Source: Intestinirhabdus alba (GTDB taxonomy: Bacteria; Pseudomonadota; Gammaproteobacteria; Enterobacterales; Enterobacteriaceae). Taken from it: a stretch of 64,000 nucleotides of DNA. Below are positions 51,614 to 62,988 of this stretch, in pieces. The translations under genes and the position numbers were made by a program. The notes beneath the pieces are model-generated. The model saw only the letters and a list, made by a program, of their open reading frames with translations, was not told the origin of the DNA and made no database searches. Each line of letters begins with the position of its first letter. Positions within the stretch are counted from its first letter, which is position 1. The stretch spans positions 36,899-100,898 of the forward strand of contig NZ_WMJZ01000019.1 of assembly GCF_009711095.1 (NCBI RefSeq). Direction: 5' to 3'.

Positions 51614-52429
51614 ATGCTTGCCACCACCGATCTCTGGTTTCGCTATCAGGACGAGCAGGTGCTTAAGGGGCTGACGCTGGACTTTTCCGCACACGCCGTC
51701 ACCGGGCTGGTGGGGGCGAACGGCTGCGGAAAGTCCACGCTGTTTATGAATCTCAGCGGCCTGCTGCGCCCGCAGCGGGGCGCGGTGCTGTGGCAGGGAA
51801 AGCCGCTGGACTACGGCAGGCGTGGTCTGCTGGCCCTGCGCCAGCGGGTGGCGACCCTGTTTCAGGACCCCGATCGGCAAATTTTTTATACCGATATCGA
51901 CAGCGATATCGCCTTCAGCCTGCGCAACCTGGGGGTGGCGGAGGCGGAGATTGCCCGCCGGGTGGAGGAGGCCCTGACGCTGGTTGACGCCCACGCCTTC
52001 CGCCACCGACCGATCCAGTGCTTAAGCCACGGGCAGAAAAAGCGCGTGGCCCTTGCCGGGGCGCTGGTGCTGCAGGCGGAGTACCTGCTGCTCGACGAGC
52101 CGACGGCGGGCCTCGATCCGGCCGGACGCGCGCAGATGATTGAAATTATCCGGCGCATCGTGGCCCAGGGGAACCATGTGGTGATCTCCAGCCACGATAT
52201 CGATCTGATCTATGAGGTCAGCGACACCGTTTATGTGCTGGGCCACGGCGAGGTGCTGGCCCACGGCGAGCCGGGGGCGGTGTTCGCCCGTAGCGAACTG
52301 ATTGCCGACGCCGGGCTGACCCAGCCCTGGCTGGTGAAACTGCACGCGCAGGCGGGCCTGCCGCTGTGCAAAACCGAAGATGAATTTTTTCAGCGTATGC
52401 GCCGGGAGGCGCGGAAGGAGAGGTCATGA
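51614..52429 (+). CDS. cbiO: cobalt ECF transporter ATPase
   Basis: 271 aa. ABC ATPase with Walker [10 protein letters not shown], signature LSHGQKKR, and Walker B LLLDEPT. Confidence 0.92.
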
Positions 52430-53949
52430 CCCAGGCGATTATGCTGCAGGGGACGGCGTCGGACGTCGGCAAGAGCGTGCTGGTGGCCGGGCTGTGCCGG
52501 ATTTTTGCGCAGGACGGCCTGCGCGTTGCACCGTTTAAGTCGCAGAACATGGCGCTCAACTCCGGCATCACGCCGGACGGCAAAGAGATGGGGCGGGCGC
52601 AGATTTTCCAGGCGGAGGCGGCGGGCATCGTTCCGGACGTGCGGATGAACCCGGTGCTGCTCAAGCCCACCAGCGACCGTAAGGCGCAGGTGGTGCTGAT
52701 GGGCAAGGTGGCGACCGACATGGACGCGGTGAGCTATCACCAGTACAAGCCGCGGCTGCGCGAACAGATCCTCGCCGTCTATCACGACCTGGCGCGGCAG
52801 TATGACGTGCTGGTACTGGAGGGGGCGGGCAGCCCGGCGGAGATCAACCTGCGCGATCGCGACATCGTTAATATGGGGATGGCGGAGATGGCCCGCTGCC
52901 CGGTGATCCTGGTGGCGGATATCGACCGGGGCGGGGTGTTCGCCTCGATCTATGGCACCCTGGCGCTGCTGCACGAGCGCGAGCGGGCGCGGGTCAAAGG
53001 GGTGATCGTCAATAAGTTTCGCGGCGACGTGGCGCTGCTCTACTCCGGCATCGAGCAGATCGAGGCGCTGACCGGGGTGCCGGTGCTGGGGGTGATGCCG
53101 TGGCTGGACGTCGATCTGGAGGATGAGGACGGCGTCGCCCTGCAAAAGGGCAAGTACCCGCGCCGGGACCATCGCGACATCGACATCGCGGTGGTGCAGG
53201 TGCCGCATATTGCCAACTTCACCGACTTTAACGCGCTGGCGGCGCAGCCGGACGTGCGGGTGCGCTACGTGCGTCGGCCGGAGGAGCTGGCGGAGGCCGA
53301 TCTGCTGATCCTGCCCGGCAGCAAGAACACCCTGGGCGATCTGACCTGGCTGCAGGAGAGCGGGATGGCCCACGCCGTGCTGCAGGCGCACCGTCGCAAG
53401 GTGCCGGTAATGGGCATCTGCGGCGGCTACCAGATGCTTGGCGAAACCATCATTGACGAGGTGGAGTCGGGCCTCGGCACCCGGCCAGGGCTGGGGCTGC
53501 TCGATACCGTCACCCGCTTTGCCCACCATAAAACCACCACCCGGGCGACGGCGACGCTTGCGGATGCGCTGCCCGGATGGCTGGCGGCCGCCTCCGGAAT
53601 AGCGGTGAGCGGCTATGAGATCCACATGGGCGAAACGACGCTGCGGGAGGCGTGCCGCAGCGCGCTGGCGCTGCAGAAGAACGGCCAGCGGGTGGCCGAC
53701 GGCGCGGTCAGCGCTGACGGGCTGGCGTTCGGCACCTATCTGCACGGCCTGTTCGACAGCGACAACTTCACCCGCGCCCTGGTGAACGGCCTGCGGCAGC
53801 GCAAAGGGCTGCCGCCGCTGGATCTGGCCTTTCAGTACGCGCACTATAAGGCGCAGCAGTTCGATCTGCTGGCGGAGGCCATGCGACAGCATATCGACAT
53901 GGCGAAAATTTATACCATCATGCAGCAGCATCAGGAGCCTTTATGCTGA
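52426..53949 (+). CDS. cbiP: cobyric acid synthase
   Basis: 507 aa. Confidence 0.92.
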
Positions 53950-54488
53950 CCCTTGTTACCGGCGGCGCGCGCAGCGGCAAAAGCCGCCATGCCGAAGCGC
54001 TGTTAGCCGACGCGCCGCGGGTGCTTTACATCGCCACCTCGCAAATTCTGGATGACGAAATGGCCGCCCGCGTTCGCCACCATCGCGACGGCCGCCCGGC
54101 GCACTGGCGTACCGCCGAGCGCTGGCGGCAGCTGGACGCGCTGATCGCGGCGGAGGGCGATCCCGACGAGGCCGTTCTGCTGGAGTGTATCACCACCATG
54201 GTCACCAACCTGCTGTTTGCCTTCGGCGGCGAAAGCGATCCGCAGACGTGGGATTTTGCGGCGCTGGAGCGGGCGGTCGACGACGAGATCGACAGGCTGA
54301 TCGCCGCCTGCCGGCGCTGTCCGGCGCGGGTCGTGCTGGTGACCAACGAGGTGGGGATGGGCATCGTGCCGGAAAACCGCCTGGCGCGCCATTTTCGCGA
54401 CATCGCCGGGCGGGTCAACCAGCGGCTGGCGACGGCGGCGGACGAGGTCTGGCTGGTGGTGTCCGGCATTGGAGTGAAAATTAAATGA
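53943..54488 (+). CDS. cobU: adenosylcobinamide kinase / adenosylcobinamide-phosphate guanylyltransferase
   Basis: 181 aa, P-loop GGARSGKS. Confidence 0.92.
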
Positions 54489-55228
54489 TCGTACGGTTCT
54501 GGGCGATGCTGGGATTTATCAGCCGTCTGCCGGTCCCCGTCCGCTGGACCCGGGGGCTGGACTTTGAGCATTACTCCCGCGGTATCGTCACCTTTCCGCT
54601 GGTGGGGCTGCTGCTCGGCGGCCTGAGCGGGCTGGCGTTTGTTATTCTTCAGGCGTGGTGCGGCGTGCCGCTGGCGGCGCTGTTCTGCGTGCTGACGCTG
54701 GCGCTGCTGACCGGCGGTTTTCATCTGGACGGCCTGGCGGACACCTGCGACGGCGTTTTCTCCGCGCGCCACCGGGAGCGGATGCTGGAGATTATGCGCG
54801 ACAGCCGCCTCGGCACCCACGGCGCGCTGGCGCTGATCTTCGTGCTGCTGGCGAAGGTGCTGGTCATCAGCGAGCTGGCGCTGCGCGGGACGCCGATGCT
54901 GGCCGCGCTGGCGGCGGCCAGTGCGGTAGGTCGCGGATGCGCCGTGCTGCTGATGTATCGCCATCGCTACGCCCGGGAGGAGGGGCTGGGAAACGTCTTT
55001 ATCGGCCACGTTTCCGGCCGACAGGCGGGCGTGACGCTGGGGCTGGCGGCGCTTCTGGCCGCGCTGCTGCTGCCGGGAATGGGTGGCGTGGTGGCGATGG
55101 TCGCGGCGGCCGCGGCGATTTTTATCCTCGGACAGCAGTTAAAGCGCACCCTGGGCGGGCAAACCGGCGACACGCTGGGCGCGGCAATTGAACTTGGCGA
55201 GCTGATCTTCCTGCTGGCTCTGCTGTGA
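54485..55228 (+). CDS. cobS: adenosylcobinamide-GDP ribazoletransferase (cobalamin synthase)
   Basis: 247 aa, membrane protein. Confidence 0.9.
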
Positions 55229-55253
55229 GTCGGCCAATACCATGAGGACCCTT

Positions 55254-56324
55254 ATGCAGACGTTAACCTCTTTACTTGATGCTATTCCCGCGCCTGACGC
55301 CGGGGCGATGGCCCGCGCCCAGCGGCATATTGACGGCCTGCTGAAGCCGCCGGGCAGCCTCGGGCGGCTGGAGGCGCTGGCGGTGCAGCTGGCGGGAATG
55401 CCGGGGCTGAACGGTCGGCCGCAGGTCGGTGAAAAGGCGATCCTGGTGATGTGCGCCGACCACGGCGTCTGGGATGAGGGAGTGGCGATCTCGCCGAAGG
55501 CGGTGACCGCCATCCAGGCCGCCAACATGACCCGCGGCACCACGGGAGTCTGCGCGCTGGCCGGCCAGGCGGGGGCGCGGGTGCAGGTGATTGACGTCGG
55601 CATCGACGCCGATCCGATCCCCGGCGTGGTGAATATGCGCGTGGCCCGCGGCTGCGGCAATATCGCCGTCGGCCCGGCGATGAGCCGCTCTCAGGCGGAG
55701 GCGCTGCTGCTGCAGGTAATGCGCTATACCCGCGGGCTGGCGCAGCAGGGCGTGACGCTGTTTGGCGTCGGCGAGCTGGGGATGGCCAACACCACTCCGG
55801 CGGCGGCCATCGTCGGGGTGCTGACCGGCAGCGATGCCGAAGCGGTGGTGGGGATCGGCGCTAACCTGCCGCCGTCGCGCATCGGCAATAAGGTGGCCGT
55901 GGTACGGCGGGCCATTGCCGTCAACCGGCCCGATCCGCAGGACGGCGTTGACGTGCTGGCGAAGGTTGGCGGGTTCGATCTGGTGGGCATGGCCGGCGTG
56001 ATGCTGGGGGCCGCCTCCTGCGGGCTGCCGGTGCTGCTTGACGGCTTTCTCTCCTATTCGGCGGCGCTGGCGGCCTGCCGGATCGCCCCGCAAATTAAGC
56101 CTTATCTGATCCCGTCGCACCTCTCGGCGGAAAAGGGGGCGCGGATTGCGCTGGCGCAGCTGGGGCTGGTGCCTTACCTCAATATGGAGATGCGCCTGGG
56201 CGAAGGCAGCGGAGCGGCGCTGGCAATCCCCATCGTCGAGGCGGCCTGCGCGATGTACGACACGATGGGGCAGCTTGCCGACAGCAATATCGTGCTGCCG
56301 GCGACGCCGGGCCGCTCCGCGTAA
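55254..56324 (+). CDS. cobT: nicotinate-nucleotide--dimethylbenzimidazole phosphoribosyltransferase
   Basis: ATG at 55254 ([40 protein letters not shown]), 356 aa, matching E. coli/Salmonella CobT. The ATG at 55242 is a possible 4-codon extension. Confidence 0.92.
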
Positions 56325-56375
56325 CGTCCAGGCCCGGCTGCGGAGCGTGGGCGGCTCGTCCATCAGCCGGGTCGC

Positions 56376-58847
56376 TCACTTTTTGCAGTACGCTTTGACC
56401 TGCATTATCTCCTTCTTAAGATTTTCCTCCAGATAGTCGGTAAAACGGTGTCCCCAGCGGCTCAGCAGACTTTCCGCTTCGGGGAAATCCTGCTGTTCAA
56501 TGGCGTGCTTGATTTGTACTTTCGCGAGATTAACCTCAATAATCTTGTTGTCTTTCTTGCGTTTAATAACGCTCTGAATATCTTTTAGCAGCTCCGCATA
56601 CTGATAGTTCCGGCCTTTGGCGGAAAAGATTTCCAGTAAAGAGATCTTTAGCTGAATATTCAGCTGGGTGCTTTTGGATAACGAATCGAGCAGGGCGATA
56701 TTTTGATTATCAACCAGCACATCTTTCATCTTTTCACGCACGTGGAAGAAGGTGGTGTTTTTCCGTTCATCCGCGATTTTTAATTTTTCCAGACACTCTT
56801 CTATTTTATTCACTAATGCGGTAGTGCGTTCCTGACGATACAGCGACAATAAGGCCCAGGCCTTGATGTCGAGGATGAAAGGGTTATCAACGTCGATCGA
56901 CAGCGCTTTGTCGGCATAGGATATCGCCTCATCGAAGCGTTCATCAAAAGAGTAGATTGTGGCGATTTCCCGGAATACATGGGCATCAATATCTCTTTTT
57001 TCTTCGATCTTCATCAGGCACTTCAGCGCATCCTTCAGCCTGCCGTTTAGTCTGTATTTGAAGCCGTTGACAAAATTGTAGATGATATCTTTTTTGGGAT
57101 GGTTGGGAATAGTTAAGTACTGTTCTTTGAATGAGGTAAAGGCTTTCTCATTGCCGGTTCTGGCGGAGGAGAGCCCGATCAGTCGCCAGGTCTCAATTTT
57201 TCCCTCAGGGCTTAATTTGGTTTGCCATTGGTTAGCATCTTGCGCCAGCTGCAGAGCGTCAGCGTATTCCCTTTCATTATAGCGTCGCTTTGCGGCCTTA
57301 ATCAGCTGGATCGGCATGACAAAGTTTTTGAGATAATCGGGGAGGGGTTCGTCAGTCACTAAATGGGAGACAATCCTGGCATCTAAAATATCGATGGGGA
57401 CGTAGGTGTCGCTGTCGACCTCGGAGTATTTTTGCAGGATGACTTTGATATGCGGTAACAGCTCCGCACGGTACATCTGCGCATATCTGGAGGCGGCATT
57501 TTGCAGATAGGTGGAAAGGCGATAATCATTTTTTTGATATTGTAAAAAACCAGAGTCAATCAGCTTTGATAAACCGTACTCAAAGTCTGGCCAGCTTTTA
57601 CCGATCTCTTTTGCTTCGTTAAATGACACAATATCGGCCATGCCAAAAAAGCCGATGGCTTTTTCTAGCTTCACGTCATTTTTGACGAAATCCTGGATGA
57701 GTCTGTTTACCTCGGTTCTGACCTTTGAAACAATAGTGCCGTGCGTCTTGTTGATTTTATATCCAGGATTGGTTTTTAAATAGGTTGCCACCATATTTAT
57801 TAAACCCGGATGGCCGATAACGCTTTGCTCTATAATATGTGTTTCTGATTTCGGGATATGTACGCTATAAAGATTGATAAGCATTCTGAACAGGTAGATA
57901 GAGTCATCTTCACTCAATGGGAAAACCTGGTAGGCGTATCCCTCTTTGAGATCGTCGAGATCCACATTTCTTTTAGAGATGAACACCACAAGTGGCCACG
58001 AATGCTTATTTAAGGCGGTAATAAAGGAAATGAAAAGTTCATTCAGGCGATCGTCATTGATCACATTGGAGTTGGATATATTAATGAGTAGTGCCTGCTT
58101 GCCGGGGATGCAAATACTATCAATCATGGCGCTGAGCTTTTCGAGCTGCTTCGGCTCGGTTAACTTATCAAATGACTTTCTTTGATCAAGATATTCGCCC
58201 GCTTTCCAGTTGGCAGTATATTGTAATAGCGAGTCGTGTATACTGCTTAAATCCGCAAATTCCCCGATATCAAGCTGAATAAAGCCATTTACCAGACGAT
58301 AGAGCTTTTTATAGACTTCGCGGGCTAAGGTTCTTCTTCCGATACCGTCCGGGCCGCTGAGAAAAAGAAATTTCGGGTTCTGCTCCATCATGATCAGGTC
58401 ACCGGTAATTTTCTTTACATCATCCTCCCGCCCATAGCACTCCTGCGTTTGATTTTTTACTAATGCCTGAAGTTCGTTGCGAATAGCGATGGCGATCTGA
58501 ATGGGGTTGGGGATCGATTCCGCGCGGTACTGTTGAAAAGATTCAGGTAACTCGCTCCATTTTGTGTCATCTAATAAAAAAACCATTATCTTTTTAAGCG
58601 ACTGGTTAAACAACAGCTCCTTGGCTAAGTTTATTTCCCCCTGTACCCAGCCGCTGGCCAGCGCGGATTTAGATAAAAACAATACAAAAATTTCACAATC
58701 AAGCATGCTTTCTCTGATTTCATCAATCAGGTAAGCATTAGACGGGAATGTTTTTTCATCAAATATGGCATGAGTTGCTGACAGATGTTCATAAACCTTT
58801 TTTACAAAGTCTTTATCGGCAAAGTTATGGGATAAAAAAGCTTTCAT
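56376..58847 (-). CDS. TIR-domain / P-loop STAND-like NTPase / TPR-like repeat protein (candidate single-gene NLR-type antiphage or abortive-infection effector)
   Basis: 823-aa ORF. ATG at 58847 with a GGAGG SD 5 nt upstream. Residues 1-~130 carry TIR hallmarks (MKAFLSHNFADKD...FDEK...IDEIRESMLDCEIFVLFLSKSALASGWVQGEINLA: FxSH start, SxxW, Glu at W+4). Walker-A-like FLFLSGPDGIGRRTLAREVY at aa 160-178. The C-terminal ~350 aa is helical repeat-rich. About 42% GC against ~65% in the neighbours. Confidence 0.85.
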   Translation of the reverse strand: MKAFLSHNFADKDFVKKVYEHLSATHAIFDEKTFPSNAYLIDEIRESMLDCEIFVLFLSKSALASGWVQGEINLAKELLFNQSLKKIMVFLLDDTKWSELPESFQQYRAESIPNPIQIAIAIRNELQALVKNQTQECYGREDDVKKITGDLIMMEQNPKFLFLSGPDGIGRRTLAREVYKKLYRLVNGFIQLDIGEFADLSSIHDSLLQYTANWKAGEYLDQRKSFDKLTEPKQLEKLSAMIDSICIPGKQALLINISNSNVINDDRLNELFISFITALNKHSWPLVVFISKRNVDLDDLKEGYAYQVFPLSEDDSIYLFRMLINLYSVHIPKSETHIIEQSVIGHPGLINMVATYLKTNPGYKINKTHGTIVSKVRTEVNRLIQDFVKNDVKLEKAIGFFGMADIVSFNEAKEIGKSWPDFEYGLSKLIDSGFLQYQKNDYRLSTYLQNAASRYAQMYRAELLPHIKVILQKYSEVDSDTYVPIDILDARIVSHLVTDEPLPDYLKNFVMPIQLIKAAKRRYNEREYADALQLAQDANQWQTKLSPEGKIETWRLIGLSSARTGNEKAFTSFKEQYLTIPNHPKKDIIYNFVNGFKYRLNGRLKDALKCLMKIEEKRDIDAHVFREIATIYSFDERFDEAISYADKALSIDVDNPFILDIKAWALLSLYRQERTTALVNKIEECLEKLKIADERKNTTFFHVREKMKDVLVDNQNIALLDSLSKSTQLNIQLKISLLEIFSAKGRNYQYAELLKDIQSVIKRKKDNKIIEVNLAKVQIKHAIEQQDFPEAESLLSRWGHRFTDYLEENLKKEIMQVKAYCKK

Positions 58848-59413
58848 GCTGGCCTCCGTGTCACAAAATAAATATTAATGATAAGTGTGTAGGGCTGTAT
58901 GACAGCGTGTTCAGGGCGATACCAATGTACTTATTTTTAAGGCAAATTACCATCTGCTTTTTCGGGGCTGGCGAGAGATAAAATTGAATGCCGTGAATAT
59001 AAAATAAATTTATCATTTCCCGGTGATATGCGCGTGGTGCATTGGGTTCATCCTTAAGTGCTGTTACCGGCGGCGCTGGCTTATCAGATGCAATCATTTA
59101 CGTTCGGTGAACCGCGCGCTCAGGCAGATGCAGGGGGATTTTCCCGGCGCGATGGCGCGGCGAAAACTGGAGTGGCTCTGTTCTGGATCCTGCCTTATTG
59201 CGAAGGGAAAGCGCGCTTTGCCTGTAACCACCGGGCGGTGTGTTTTCAGGTTAACCTGCAATAATTCTTAATATTTTCAGGGCATAATTAAAAGCCTGGC
59301 GCAGATCAAAAGATACAGCTGGCAAATAAACTCCGCGGTAAATGCAGGGAAAGCCGTGCCCCAATATAAAAAAGCTATAATTTCTGTCTACGGCTAAAAC
59401 AGAGGAATAGAGA

Positions 59414-60594: not shown

Positions 60595-61593
60595 CTAGAG
60601 ATTGTCGAGAATAATTCTCTTTTTGCTATCAAACTCTTCCTGGGTCAGGATGCCTTCTTCGAGCAGGCTTTTTAGCATCCGCAGCTTTGCCTGCGGCTCC
60701 TGCTGCTGCGTGTCGACAGCGGTCTGCTGCGGCTGCAGCAGCGTTTTCCCCAGATCCAGCCCGGCCCCCAGCTGTAACCCCGCCGCGGCCAGCCCGGACT
60801 CATTTTTTGCCGCATCCCGCAGCGCACGCAGCCTTTCCAGCCCGACGTAATCCAGTCCGACTTCGCTGGCCGATGCGGCTTCCACCTTCATTTGCGCCAG
60901 CTGCCTGATGCGCGCCAGCGTATCTTCGCTGAAGGTCGTACCGGCAATGCGCATATCCGTCAGCCGCAGCCCCAGCGCATTATAGATCTGGTTGATGGCC
61001 GCTTTCAGTTGTGCGGAGAGGGCGGCGAGCTGCGCGTCAATTTGCGTGTAGGCATAGCCGGCCTGCGCCAGTAAAGCGGCGATTTCCGGCGCTATCCGGG
61101 AATTAATGATGCTCTGCAGATCCGCCTGCGTAAAGCTATCCCGGCTACCGACGATATTCTCAAAAAACAGTCGCGCATCCTCAATACGAAACGCATAGGT
61201 TCCGTAGGCCCCAAGCTCCATCGGCAGCTGGTGGTTCGGTTCGGTATATTTGACGGGGGAAGAGGTTCCCCACTGCTGGTTGACCTGCTCCGTTTGTCGC
61301 CAGAAGTAAAGGTACAGCTTATGTTCGCTTTCAAAGCGACGCAGCAGGCTAGCCAGTGAGGTAATAAAAGGTGTGTTAGCCGTCTTCAGATCGTGAATGC
61401 CCGGTTCACTGAGCACATCGATAATTTTTCCTTCATAGACCAGAACGCATCCCTGTCCGGGGGCGACAATGAGCTTGCTGGCGTTTTTGATTTCATCGGT
61501 TGGCGTGACCAGCCGGCTGAAAAGAACCGCGGGATCGTGATTTTTCCACTCGATGACCCCCGGCAGCTGTCTTTTAAATAAATTCCTTAACAT
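60595..61593 (-). CDS. SPFH (band-7-like) domain protein with C-terminal SHOCT domain
   Basis: 332 aa. A central region resembles the SPFH/'virion core protein' family. The last ~28 aa (AKLRMLKSLLEEGILTQEEFDSKKRIILDNL) are a SHOCT motif. The stop is 3 nt downstream of the upstream gene, consistent with an operon. Confidence 0.8.
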   Translation of the reverse strand: MLRNLFKRQLPGVIEWKNHDPAVLFSRLVTPTDEIKNASKLIVAPGQGCVLVYEGKIIDVLSEPGIHDLKTANTPFITSLASLLRRFESEHKLYLYFWRQTEQVNQQWGTSSPVKYTEPNHQLPMELGAYGTYAFRIEDARLFFENIVGSRDSFTQADLQSIINSRIAPEIAALLAQAGYAYTQIDAQLAALSAQLKAAINQIYNALGLRLTDMRIAGTTFSEDTLARIRQLAQMKVEAASASEVGLDYVGLERLRALRDAAKNESGLAAAGLQLGAGLDLGKTLLQPQQTAVDTQQQEPQAKLRMLKSLLEEGILTQEEFDSKKRIILDNL

Positions 61594-61596
61594 AGA

Positions 61597-62988
61597 TTAT
61601 TCCTCATAGGTCAGCGTGTAGGTGGTTTGCGTTTTTCCGTCGGCATCGATGGTGTAGAGATGGGTGCAGTCCTTTTCCATTAAAAAGCCGTCGTCAAACG
61701 GGTAGATATCCTGTATTCCCGGCGAAGGGATGGTCCAGAGTACCGCGCCGCTATCAGGATCAAGCTTTTGCAGATTATAGGCTGCATCCGGGCTGGCGTT
61801 TTCTTTTACGGCAATAAACAAATTTTTCTGGTCATAATACATAATGACGGGTGAGAAATAGATGCGATCCGGATCGGTAAGATTCTTAAAATTAATGATG
61901 CGATATCGGTCAGCGTCATCCAGAACTCTTATTTTGGTCGCTGGTCCGACATAGGTTTTTGATTCAGGATCGTAGCCCTCATACCAGTTTAATCTCTGTG
62001 GAATAGATATCGGGCCACCGTTATTATTCAGGTAGGTAATTTTGATTAACTCCTTTTTGTCCCCTTCCTTAGGGAACTTCGGCCCAACAAATTTGTAGAG
62101 GGTTGCCGGGCTGTGGTCAGGAAGCAGATTGCGCATAAAATGGCTGGCATTATAAATAGCATCATCGCCCGCATAAACTTTATCAATTACGGGATAATAG
62201 TACAGCCGTTTGCCATCATTGCTCAGAATGGTAAAGCCGCTGCCCTGGCTGTGGGAGACAAAATCAATGGTGGCAATGCCGGACTGAAACGCTTTGTGGC
62301 CGGAAAAAAACGTTTCGCCCACGGGATCTATCGACAACGTATCACTATTCAGCTGAAATAATTCACGCTGGAGTAGAATAAGATAAATTTTGCCATCCGC
62401 AAATTCCCGGATACTCCAGCTCTTCGAGGGTGTTCCCCATCTCGCTTTGGCGTGGGAGTTAATGCGCACCTTTTTTACAATTTTCTTTGTAGTAAGATCG
62501 GTAAAAACCGCGTAGAAGCCGCTTTCTGGATCGTCCGCCTGCTGCTGGACACCACTTCCCGAAACTTTTTCAACCACAGAAAGGTAGATTTTTTGCTGCG
62601 AATGGGGCAAAAACGAACAGACAAATGTGGTATAGCGGGCCGGCTTTTTTAGCTCCGATGTCGGAGACGCGGTAGTGCTGGTGCTGGACGAAGTGTGCTT
62701 TACCGGGATGGCCGCTTTTTCGAACCGGAAAAAAAGGGTCAGCGCGCCGGACAGTAACAGCAGGCCAACGACAATCAGGCCCAGCGTCTTCAGCAGCCTG
62801 ATCTCATCCTCAGGGAGGCATTCTTTATGCGGCGGCGGTTCATGATGGCGGATATGAACGTTAATATCGTCATTGTCCAGATAATACTCGCTATGACAGC
62901 TCTGACAAAGATAGTGTTCGGCTGCAAGCGCTGTTTTTTGCGTGCTTCCGCATTGCGGACATTTAATTGTTTTTAGCTGTTTTGCCAT
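61597..62988 (-). CDS. zinc-ribbon / single-TM / periplasmic beta-rich domain protein of unknown function
   Basis: 463 aa. N-terminal CPQCGS...CQSCHS zinc ribbon, TM helix LGLIVVGLLLLSGALTLFF, Ser/Thr-rich linker, and a ~330-aa C-terminal domain with no motif I recognise. Lower GC than the host genes. ATG at 62988. Confidence 0.75.
   Translation of the reverse strand: MAKQLKTIKCPQCGSTQKTALAAEHYLCQSCHSEYYLDNDDINVHIRHHEPPPHKECLPEDEIRLLKTLGLIVVGLLLLSGALTLFFRFEKAAIPVKHTSSSTSTTASPTSELKKPARYTTFVCSFLPHSQQKIYLSVVEKVSGSGVQQQADDPESGFYAVFTDLTTKKIVKKVRINSHAKARWGTPSKSWSIREFADGKIYLILLQRELFQLNSDTLSIDPVGETFFSGHKAFQSGIATIDFVSHSQGSGFTILSNDGKRLYYYPVIDKVYAGDDAIYNASHFMRNLLPDHSPATLYKFVGPKFPKEGDKKELIKITYLNNNGGPISIPQRLNWYEGYDPESKTYVGPATKIRVLDDADRYRIINFKNLTDPDRIYFSPVIMYYDQKNLFIAVKENASPDAAYNLQKLDPDSGAVLWTIPSPGIQDIYPFDDGFLMEKDCTHLYTIDADGKTQTTYTLTYEE

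What the first reader, a model, noticed from the sequence alone, without database searches (positions are those of the whole stretch)
58329..58355. Non-canonical Walker A (GxxGxGRRT) and Asp-less Walker B candidate in the STAND module
The only P-loop-like motif is GPDGIGRRTLA. The invariant Lys of GxxxxGK[ST] is replaced by Arg-Arg. The best Walker B candidate, ALLINISNSN ahead of the VVFISKR sensor-like stretch, lacks the acidic residue. This suggests either an unusual nucleotide-binding mode or a nucleotide-independent, pre-assembled scaffold. Either would distinguish it from characterised Avs/bNACHT proteins.
Basis: seen in the sequence. Interest (0 to 1): 0.5.

Follow-up and report, generated by a model that had tools for sequence, protein, structure and literature searches.

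The report
Arginine P-loop in a TIR-NLR defence protein
The odd motif is real: it is the nucleotide-binding loop of a bacterial TIR-NLR-type anti-phage protein, and its lysine-to-arginine change is a strictly conserved hallmark of that whole, already catalogued family rather than a quirk of this gene.

Summary
Window 56376-58847 (-) encodes an intact 823-aa TIR / NB-ARC-like NOD / TPR protein on a 3-kb low-GC islet. GPDGIGRRT (aa 165-173, 58329-58355) is the true P-loop. It lies between strand 160-164 and helix 171-182 of the model, and profile alignment places it on GxxGxGKTT of plant NLRs: R171 = Walker A Lys, R172 = Mg-binding Thr.

The change is family-wide. Arg fills the Lys position in 318 of 320 aligned representatives, is encoded by all six Arg codons, and is about as conserved as the TIR catalytic Glu. 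The family includes the E. coli P4-satellite "TIR-NLR" defence protein (PADLOC PDLC03015; PDB 9M0N/9UMD, motif GVGRRS).

The Asp-less Walker B is not a family trait. Most relatives have hhhhD, and this protein is one of at least two lineages with D->N. The MHD His is also lost, while the sensor-1 Arg, GxP Pro and upstream GR are kept.

Best reading (inferred): a remodelled, non-hydrolytic, Mg-independent phosphate or nucleotide pocket in a phage sensor that oligomerises to switch on its TIR NADase. I could not test whether it binds nucleotide at all.

Verdict: a new, divergent member of a known kind. The P-loop variant was not mentioned in any paper I could search. Moderate interest.

The parts
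56376..58847 (-). Intact 823-aa ORF (stop included): TIR / NB-ARC-like NOD / TPR single-protein defence candidate
58473..58844 (-). TIR domain (aa 2 to about 125)
   Evidence: Pfam TIR_2 E 1.7e-13 and ThsB_TIR; model strands and helices
58635..58637 (-). Codon of E71, the TIR catalytic Glu (WVxxE)
   Evidence: 310/310 in the family alignment, the most conserved column of the protein
57468..58445 (-). NOD module (aa 135-460): NBD, helical domain 1 and winged-helix domain
   Evidence: Pfam AAA_16 and NB-ARC; Foldseek hits to 6mfv, RPP1, Apaf-1 and NRC; secondary structure
58425..58439 (-). Upstream 'hhGRE' motif (C137-E141); G139 and R140 invariant or nearly so
   Evidence: R140 is R in 318/319
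58329..58355 (-). P-loop / Walker A, G165-P-D-G-I-G-R171-R172-T173: Lys->Arg and Mg-binding Thr->Arg
58074..58097 (-). Walker B strand (aa 251-258, QALLINIS). N256 (codon AAT, 58080-58082) replaces the family's Asp
57969..57989 (-). Sensor-1 motif VVFISKR (aa 287-293); R293 conserved
   Evidence: compare the 'TT/SR' motif in PMC11897194
57801..57815 (-). GxP (GLPL-type) motif GHPGL (aa 345-349) in helical domain 1
   Evidence: aligned with G(v/l)PLaI of MLA13 and NRC1; P347 is P in 319/322
57510..57518 (-). MHD-equivalent position L444-S445-T446 at the end of the winged-helix hairpin; the His is absent
   Evidence: A/S/V in the window clade, 'RLND' in the 9M0N clade; structure context
56379..57395 (-). 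C-terminal all-helical TPR-like sensor domain (aa 485-823)
   Evidence: weak TPR Pfam hits; helical repeats in the model; aligns end to end with 9M0N
56330..59300 (.). Low-GC (39-48%) single-gene islet between cobT and an L,D-transpeptidase gene, in a backbone of about 68% GC

Best explanation
The ORF is a divergent member (about 22% identity) of the bacterial TIR-NLR anti-phage family: N-terminal TIR NADase, central NB-ARC-like NOD, C-terminal TPR sensor.

Shown: GPDGIGRRT is the genuine P-loop. Its Lys->Arg and Thr->Arg/Lys changes form a superfamily-wide signature under purifying selection, GxxGxGR[RK][TS]. They come with loss of the MHD histidine and a Walker B position that tolerates Asp or Asn. 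The glycine-rich loop, upstream GR, sensor-1 Arg and GxP Pro are retained.

Inferred: the pocket is functional but no longer a Mg-NTP hydrolysing switch. Most likely it still holds a nucleotide or phosphate through the loop backbone and a bidentate Arg171. The second basic residue (172) would supply the positive charge normally given by Mg2+ and pair with Asp/Asn256. The ligand would then act as a fixed structural cofactor or latch, not a hydrolysed timer.

Inferred by analogy with Avs proteins, plant TNLs and the proposal for E. coli TIR-NLR: the TPR domain binds a phage protein, NOD-mediated oligomerisation brings the TIR domains together, and NAD+ is degraded, causing abortive infection.
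For: Architecture and family:
- Pfam TIR_2, NB-ARC, AAA_16 and TPR hits.
- PADLOC TIR-NLR, E 2e-21.
- Family profile versus PDB 9M0N, end to end, E 9e-93.
- BLASTP versus P0212: 22% identity over 690 aa, with P-loops aligned. P0212 matches the PADLOC TIR-NLR model over 1-824/824 at 1781 bits.
- The 9M0N-like gene lies between psu and int of a P4-like satellite in E. coli. This is the experimentally validated TIR-NLR hotspot system (PMC9122126).

P-loop identity:
- Model strand 160-164, loop, helix 171-182.
- Alignment to GxGKTTLA of NRC1, NRC4, ZAR1 and MLA13.

Selection:
- Arg at the Lys position in 318/320 representatives; the other two have GKR.
- 61/67 in an independent cross-phylum genome sample.
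- All six Arg codons are used.
- G170, R140, R171 and P347 are among the seven lowest-entropy columns of the protein, alongside catalytic E71.

Loss of hydrolytic or Mg features:
- Position 172 is R/K.
- Walker B shows D or N, with D->N arising at least twice in the window clade and also present in a K-type sister clade.
- The MHD His is absent in all clades.

Pocket residues kept: R293, P347, G165/G168/G170 and R140.

Effector: TIR catalytic Glu invariant.
Against: - No ligand or biochemical evidence is available. I could not see coordinates of the AF2 model or of 9M0N/9UMD, so nucleotide occupancy is untested.
- In canonical STAND and other P-loop proteins, Walker A Lys->Arg normally destroys function (my background knowledge, not tested here). 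A nucleotide-free pocket is therefore a serious alternative.
- Position 172 is not strictly basic in distant relatives (S, T, E or N in 14 of 67), which weakens the 'Arg/Lys replaces Mg2+' idea.
- N256 co-occurs only with R172 (14 vs 0 of 18 with K172), but this reflects only about two evolutionary events.
- The trigger, the oligomeric state and NADase activity of this particular protein are all inferred.
- The PADLOC match covers only residues 1-299.
Confidence: 0.5

Rival explanations
1. Nucleotide-free pseudo-NTPase. The two basic side chains fold into the phosphate site and salt-bridge or hydrogen-bond with Asp/Asn256. The NOD is then a self-plugged, nucleotide-independent oligomerisation scaffold controlled only by the TPR sensor.
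For: - The Lys, the Mg-binding Thr and the MHD His are all lost together.
- Walker B tolerates the isosteric D->N change but rarely anything else, as expected for a hydrogen-bonding partner rather than a metal ligand.
- Precedent for degenerate Walker motifs in a working Avs: KpAvs8 (PMC13581612).
Against: - Adenine- and ribose-side elements are almost invariant: P347 (319/322) and R140 (318/319). The sensor-1 Arg, which elsewhere reads the gamma-phosphate, is kept.
- The three P-loop glycines stay near-invariant.
- A decaying or merely plugged pocket would be expected to drift more.
Confidence: 0.27
2. The remodelled pocket binds a different anionic ligand, for example NAD+, ADP-ribose, a TIR product or a nucleic-acid phosphate. 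This would couple the NOD to the TIR chemistry or to a second signal.
For: - Two adjacent basic residues and no metal ligand suggest altered ligand chemistry.
- The family always carries a TIR NADase with an invariant Glu.
Against: Purely speculative. There is no extra domain or partner gene, as this is a single-gene islet, and no precedent turned up in the papers searched.
Confidence: 0.1
3. A conventional Mg-ATP binding and hydrolysis switch, in which Arg171 simply substitutes for Lys and T173 takes over Mg coordination. This matches the ATP/GTP-dependent oligomerisation assumed for E. coli TIR-NLR.
For: - Rousset et al. proposed ATP- or GTP-dependent oligomerisation (PMC9122126).
- T/S173 is well conserved.
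- Most relatives keep the Walker B Asp, and the 9M0N clade has D[DE]G.
Against: - The residue aligned with the Mg-binding Thr is R/K.
- This protein and 13 clade relatives have Asn at Walker B.
- The MHD His is missing.
- Even canonical Avs5 and Avs7 do not need hydrolysis.
Confidence: 0.08
4. A decayed relic: the NOD motifs are degenerating in a dying gene.
For: - N256 is found only in this lineage among close relatives.
- A near-identical allele elsewhere is truncated by an IS.
Against: - The ORF is intact at 823 aa.
- R171 is as conserved as the catalytic Glu and is encoded by all six Arg codons across phyla.
- About 1224 50%-identity clusters match the NOD profile.
Confidence: 0.03

Closest known systems
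E. coli P4-satellite 'TIR-NLR' defence protein (Rousset et al. 2022, PMC9122126; PADLOC PDLC03015; PDB 9M0N/9UMD 'Tetratricopeptide repeat protein', 824 aa)
   Same: Same length and TIR-NOD-TPR order, with end-to-end profile homology (E 9e-93). Same GxGRR[ST] P-loop, GR motif, GxP motif and TIR Glu, and no MHD His. Single-gene system on acquired DNA.
   Different: Only about 22% identical, and the PADLOC model matches just residues 1-299. Walker B is hhhhD[DE]G there and ALLINIS here. The MHD site is 'LND' there and 'LST' here. The genomic site is the P4 psu-int hotspot there and a cobT-ldt islet without an integrase here.
Plant TIR-NLR and CC-NLR NB-ARC domains (RPP1 7crc, ROQ1 7jlv, ZAR1 6j5t, NRC1/2/4, MLA13) and Apaf-1
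   Same: Best structural and profile neighbours of the NOD. TIR-NOD-repeat logic. The P-loop, sensor-1 and GLPL motifs align position by position.
   Different: Those have GKT[TS], hhhhDD and MHD/LHD, and bind ADP or ATP with Mg. Here the equivalents are GRRT, hhhhN and LST. The sensor is TPR rather than LRR or WD40.
Characterised bacterial Avs proteins (SeAvs7, EfAvs5) and KpAvs8
   Same: Effector-NOD-TPR-like sensor architecture. The activation model is oligomerisation on binding a phage protein. ATP hydrolysis is dispensable in Avs7 and Avs5, and KpAvs8 has degenerate Walker motifs (PMC13581612, PMC11897194).
   Different: Avs7 and Avs5 keep the canonical Lys, Ser/Thr and Asp, and mutating them kills defence. 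No PADLOC Avs or bNACHT model matches this protein. Here the non-canonical motif is invariant rather than degenerate.
Archaeal STAND-TPR protein PH0952 (PDB 6mfv)
   Same: Top Foldseek hit (E 1.2e-9): a NOD followed by a TPR sensor.
   Different: No TIR effector and 14% identity. I did not compare its Walker motifs.
E. coli 'TIR-II' system (PMC11350192)
   Same: Described as a single TIR+TPR protein, with an ATPase domain detected in about 30% of members. It is the most widespread of that paper's TIR systems and has anti-phage activity that depends on the TIR active site.
   Different: Identity with this family is not verified, because no sequences or supplements were available.

Membership tests
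STAND NTPase (NB-ARC / AP-ATPase-like NOD) | P-loop NTPase core fold followed by a helical domain and a winged-helix domain | tested here: met
   AF2 model pLDDT 83, pTM 0.80, with beta1-loop-alpha1 topology. Foldseek E 1e-9 to 1e-6 to 6mfv, RPP1, Apaf-1 and NRC. Pfam NB-ARC 23.9 bits against a cut-off of 23.5.
STAND NTPase (NB-ARC / AP-ATPase-like NOD) | Walker A GxxxxGK[ST] | tested here: not met
   The motif is GPDGIGRRT: Arg at the Lys position and Arg at the Ser/Thr position. This holds family-wide.
STAND NTPase (NB-ARC / AP-ATPase-like NOD) | Walker B hhhhD[DE] | tested here: not met
   ALLIN-IS in this protein. Most relatives keep one Asp.
STAND NTPase (NB-ARC / AP-ATPase-like NOD) | Sensor-1 Arg after strand 4 ('TT/SR') | tested here: met
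   VVFISKR. R293 is Arg in 61/64 and 130/145; in the 9M0N clade the Arg sits at a neighbouring position (ASRYR).
STAND NTPase (NB-ARC / AP-ATPase-like NOD) | GxP (GLPL) motif in helical domain 1 | tested here: met
   GHPGL aligns with G(v/l)PLaI of MLA13 and NRC1. P347 is Pro in 319/322.
STAND NTPase (NB-ARC / AP-ATPase-like NOD) | MHD-type His in the winged-helix domain that contacts the ADP beta-phosphate | tested here: not met
   L444-S445-T446. The family has A/S/V or N at the His position.
STAND NTPase (NB-ARC / AP-ATPase-like NOD) | Binds and/or hydrolyses NTP | not testable with these tools
   Needs biochemistry or inspection of the 9M0N/9UMD coordinates.
TIR-NLR anti-phage system (PADLOC PDLC03015 / Rst_TIR-NLR / PDB 9M0N) | Single protein of about 820 aa with TIR, NOD and TPR domains in that order | tested here: met
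TIR-NLR anti-phage system (PADLOC PDLC03015 / Rst_TIR-NLR / PDB 9M0N) | Match to the family HMM over its full length | tested here: inconclusive
   PADLOC E 2.1e-21 but only residues 1-299, against 1781 bits over the full length for P0212. My own family profile aligns end to end with 9M0N (E 9e-93). I read this as a homologous but distinct subfamily.
TIR-NLR anti-phage system (PADLOC PDLC03015 / Rst_TIR-NLR / PDB 9M0N) | TIR catalytic Glu present | tested here: met
   E71, invariant in 310/310.
TIR-NLR anti-phage system (PADLOC PDLC03015 / Rst_TIR-NLR / PDB 9M0N) | GxGR[RK][ST] P-loop (a signature I derived here, not a published criterion) | tested here: met
TIR-NLR anti-phage system (PADLOC PDLC03015 / Rst_TIR-NLR / PDB 9M0N) | Located in the P4-like satellite psu-int hotspot | tested here: not met
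   The window gene sits between cobT and an L,D-transpeptidase gene with no integrase. The E. coli homologue is in the P4 hotspot.
TIR-NLR anti-phage system (PADLOC PDLC03015 / Rst_TIR-NLR / PDB 9M0N) | Protects against phage | not testable with these tools
   Shown only for the E. coli protein (PMC9122126).
Avs1-5 / bNACHT | Match to Avs or bNACHT family models, or a NACHT domain | tested here: not met
   No Avs or bNACHT model among the PADLOC hits and no NACHT among the Pfam hits.

The most novel reading that the evidence does not exclude
The GxxGxGR[RK][TS] P-loop, together with loss of the MHD His, marks a large and ancient cross-phylum clade of bacterial TIR-NLRs. About 1200 50%-identity clusters match the NOD profile. 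In this clade the NOD would have abandoned the Mg-NTP switch common to NLRs, Apaf-1 and Avs proteins. It would work either nucleotide-free or with a metal-free, permanently bound phospho-ligand. NLR-type oligomerisation and TIR activation would then be governed by the sensor alone. Canonical-Lys sister lineages in Acidobacteriota would show the direction of the change. As far as I could search, this has not been described.
Probability: 0.3. Interest if true: 0.65.

Novelty: new member of a known kind. Interest (0 to 1): 0.42.

Why it matters
NLR-type immune receptors from plants, animals and bacteria are thought to depend on a Lys/Thr/Asp nucleotide pocket as their on-off switch, and mutating it kills characterised Avs proteins. 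Here a whole, widespread and experimentally validated anti-phage family has replaced the Lys and the Mg-binding Thr with basic residues, and keeps that replacement as tightly as its catalytic residue. This is a natural experiment on whether NOD oligomerisation needs a nucleotide switch. It also corrects the published working assumption of ATP/GTP-dependent activation for TIR-NLR. It is cheap to test with R171K/A, R172T and N256D mutants, nucleotide-binding assays, or inspection of 9M0N/9UMD. For annotation, the motif explains why ATPase HMMs often miss this domain: AAA_16 scores below its cut-off here, and the ATPase was detected in only about 30% of 'TIR-II' proteins.

Full report
**1. What is at the coordinates**

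Window 56376-58847 (-) is an uninterrupted 823-codon ORF. The reverse complement of 58329-58355 reads GGC CCG GAC GGT ATC GGA AGA AGA ACC, which is G165-P-D-G-I-G-R-R-T173.

Domain evidence:
- Pfam finds TIR_2 (aa 4-96, E 1.7e-13) and NB-ARC (aa 140-209, 23.9 bits against a cut-off of 23.5).
- AAA_16 (aa 137-290) scores below its cut-off, and the C-terminal TPR hits are weak.
- PADLOC gives 'TIR-NLR' PDLC03015 at E 2.1e-21, covering only residues 1-299.
- An AlphaFold2 model built on 65 homologues is confident (pLDDT 83, pTM 0.80). It shows a TIR domain, an alpha/beta NBD, a helical domain, a winged-helix domain and a long helical repeat domain.
- The best Foldseek PDB hits are a STAND-TPR protein (6mfv, E 1.2e-9), plant RPP1, Apaf-1, NRC2/3/4, ROQ1 and ZAR1.

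**2. Is it the P-loop?**

Yes. In the model the motif links strand 160-164 to helix 171-182.

A profile of the NOD region searched against PDB sequences aligns 'SGptGiGRRtLarevy' with 'vGmpGlGKTTLA..iy' of NRC1, NRC4, ZAR1 and MLA13. It also aligns 'ighPglI' with the GLPL motif of MLA13 and NRC1. The correspondences are:
- R171 = Walker A Lys
- R172 = the Mg-coordinating Thr
- T173 = the second Thr of GKTT

No other candidate exists. The only 'GKS' (aa 416) is in the winged-helix region and is not conserved. The only hhhhD[DE] strings lie inside the TIR domain.

ALLIN (252-256) ends strand 251-256, which is the Walker B position. VVFISKR (287-293) is strand 287-291 plus the sensor-1 Arg.

**3. 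Conservation**

I examined three samples:
- 64 relatives of the window protein
- the 150 best of 1224 50%-identity cluster representatives that match the NOD profile at E <= 1e-3, of which 612 are at <= 1e-10
- 120 relatives of the PDB protein

Results across these samples:
- Arg occupies the Lys position in 318 of 320 aligned sequences. The two exceptions read GKR.
- The next residue is R or K in nearly all, and the third is T or S.
- In an independent genome scan seeded on the TIR N-terminus, 61 of 67 relatives have Arg. They span Pseudomonadota, Bacteroidota, Bacillota, Cyanobacteriota, Acidobacteriota, Myxococcota, Campylobacterota, Omnitrophota and others.
- Those 61 use all six Arg codons (AGA 18, CGA 14, CGT 8, CGC 8, AGG 8, CGG 5).
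- By column entropy over the whole protein, the four most conserved positions are E71 (TIR catalytic Glu), G170, R140 and R171. P347 (GxP) ranks seventh.

The Arg is therefore held by purifying selection as strongly as the catalytic residue. This is not decay.

**4. Walker B and other pocket elements**

The 'Asp-less Walker B' is not a family trait.
- Asp is present in 50/64, 118/145 and 119/120 of the three samples. The 9M0N clade even has hhhhD[DE]G.
- Relatives 70-76% identical to the window protein read VLFVDISN.
- The window protein, and its 99% twin, carry AAT (Asn) where those relatives have Asp.
- D->N arose at least twice within the window clade, in the window lineage and in the P0017-P0046 group. 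It is also seen in a sister clade. Replacements other than Asn are rare.

The winged-helix 'MHD' position lacks His throughout. It is A/S/V in the window clade (LST here) and 'RLND' in the 9M0N clade.

Retained elements are the sensor-1 Arg (R293), the GxP Pro, the three P-loop glycines and the upstream hhGR motif.

A small Acidobacteriota clade of TIR-NOD-TPR proteins keeps the canonical GFTGVGK[ST]S and has a His ('ETHP') at the MHD site. This suggests the Arg type is derived. It is a single clade, so the evidence is weak.

**5. What family it belongs to**

PDB entries 9M0N and 9UMD ('Tetratricopeptide repeat protein', 824 aa) match the window protein at E 1.3e-21. They match the family profile end to end (1-817 vs 1-819) at E 9e-93, with the P-loop SGLIGVGRRS.

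Links from that PDB sequence to the validated defence system:
- A protein 86% identical to it (P0212) matches the PADLOC TIR-NLR model over 1-824/824 at 1781 bits.
- The gene occurs in 26 of 5426 complete E. coli genomes.
- In E. coli PMV-1 a 98%-identical copy lies between psu and the integrase of a P4-like satellite at tRNA-Leu.
- That is the hotspot from which Rousset et al. cloned 'TIR-NLR' and showed broad anti-phage activity (PMC9122126).

[quoted passage not shown] The passages on this system that I read do not mention the non-canonical P-loop.

The window protein is about 22% identical to that clade over 690 residues, with the P-loops aligned. It is a divergent member of a known, validated kind.

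It may also correspond to the 'TIR-II' class of PMC11350192, a TIR+TPR protein with an ATPase detected in about 30% of members. I could not verify this.

**6. Context**

The gene is alone on a roughly 3-kb islet of 39-48% GC. It lies between cobT (convergent) and an L,D-transpeptidase gene (divergent), in a backbone of about 68% GC. A near-identical locus from another assembly has an IS inserted at the 3' end of the gene, replacing its last 20 codons. No partner gene is evident.

**7. Mechanism**

Shown: the architecture, the P-loop identity, the family-wide and selected Lys->Arg and Thr->Arg/Lys changes, loss of the MHD His, D/N tolerance at Walker B, and retention of the other pocket elements and of the TIR Glu.

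Inferred:
- The pocket is functional but is not a Mg-NTP hydrolysing switch.
- I favour (about 0.5) metal-free binding of a nucleotide or phosphate. The glycine-rich loop and Arg171 would hold it, and residue 172 would supply the charge normally provided by Mg2+ while pairing with Asp/Asn256.
- The reason for this preference is that the adenine-side and gamma-phosphate-side elements (R140, P347, R293) are nearly invariant.
- The main rival (about 0.27) is a nucleotide-free, self-plugged pocket.
- Less likely are a different ligand such as NAD+ or ADPR (0.1), a conventional ATPase switch (0.08) and decay (0.03).

Activation is by analogy only: TPR sensing of a phage protein, then oligomerisation, then TIR NADase activity. 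The analogies are Avs proteins, plant TNLs and the proposal for E. coli TIR-NLR.

**8. Comparison with characterised systems**

- SeAvs7 coordinates ATP-Mg through Thr291, Lys292, Asp358 and Arg395. It needs nucleotide binding but not hydrolysis (PMC13581612).
- EfAvs5 binds ATP-Mg through K379, S380 and D426 and has no ATPase activity, yet K379A or D426A abolish defence (PMC11897194).
- KpAvs8 has degenerate Walker motifs.

Hydrolysis-independence and even motif degeneration therefore have precedents. A strictly conserved alternative motif across a large family was not described in anything I could search.

**9. Verdict**

However, the Asp-less Walker B is lineage-specific, the 'pre-assembled scaffold' is untested, and the feature belongs to an already catalogued family with solved structures.

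Novelty: a new member of a known kind. Interest is moderate (0.42). The open question of what, if anything, the Arg-Arg pocket binds could be settled quickly from 9M0N/9UMD or simple biochemistry.

Noticed in passing
L001:8380-9433 (same locus as window 56376-58847 in another assembly, JGI 3300056857): The near-identical allele is the same for aa 1-803, but its last 20 codons are replaced by an IS (DDE_Tnp_1 transposase, 322 aa) inserted between the gene and cobT. The window allele is intact.
   Followed up: yes
window 60595-62988 (-): A two-gene module. One gene encodes an SPFH/Band_7 + SHOCT protein (332 aa). The other encodes a 463-aa protein with an N-terminal CxxC...CxxC zinc-ribbon-like motif and a hydrophobic segment, and no Pfam or PADLOC hit. 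GC falls to 41-52% against a backbone of about 68%, so this looks like a second acquired islet. In L001 a Pyocin_S gene lies beyond it.
   Followed up: partly
L060, L063, L065, L066, L070, L071 (Acidobacteriota MAGs), about aa 164-172 of the TIR-NOD-TPR ORFs: A sister clade keeps the canonical Walker A GFTGVGK[ST]S. The full-length ORFs (L060, L063, L070) also have a His ('ETHP') at the MHD-equivalent site, Asn at Walker B (LLVISNVQ) and FVNRH instead of FVGR. This is a possible ancestral state for the Arg-type family.
   Followed up: partly
L007 (Pseudomonas serbiensis) aa 165-173; P0142; P0200: Rare intermediates with GxGKR (Lys kept, Thr replaced by Arg) occur inside the otherwise Arg-type family.
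   Followed up: no
L085:5954-10915 (E. coli PMV-1, NC_022370.1): A gene 98% identical to the PDB 9M0N sequence sits between psu and the integrase of a P4-like satellite integrated at tRNA-Leu. This ties the PDB entry to the published P4-hotspot TIR-NLR system.
   Followed up: yes
window 51614-56324 (+): Cobalamin genes: an ABC ATPase and CobQ-, CobU-, CobS- and CobT-type proteins. They form the high-GC backbone flanking the islet. The islet begins within about 50 bp of the cobT stop codon.
   Followed up: partly
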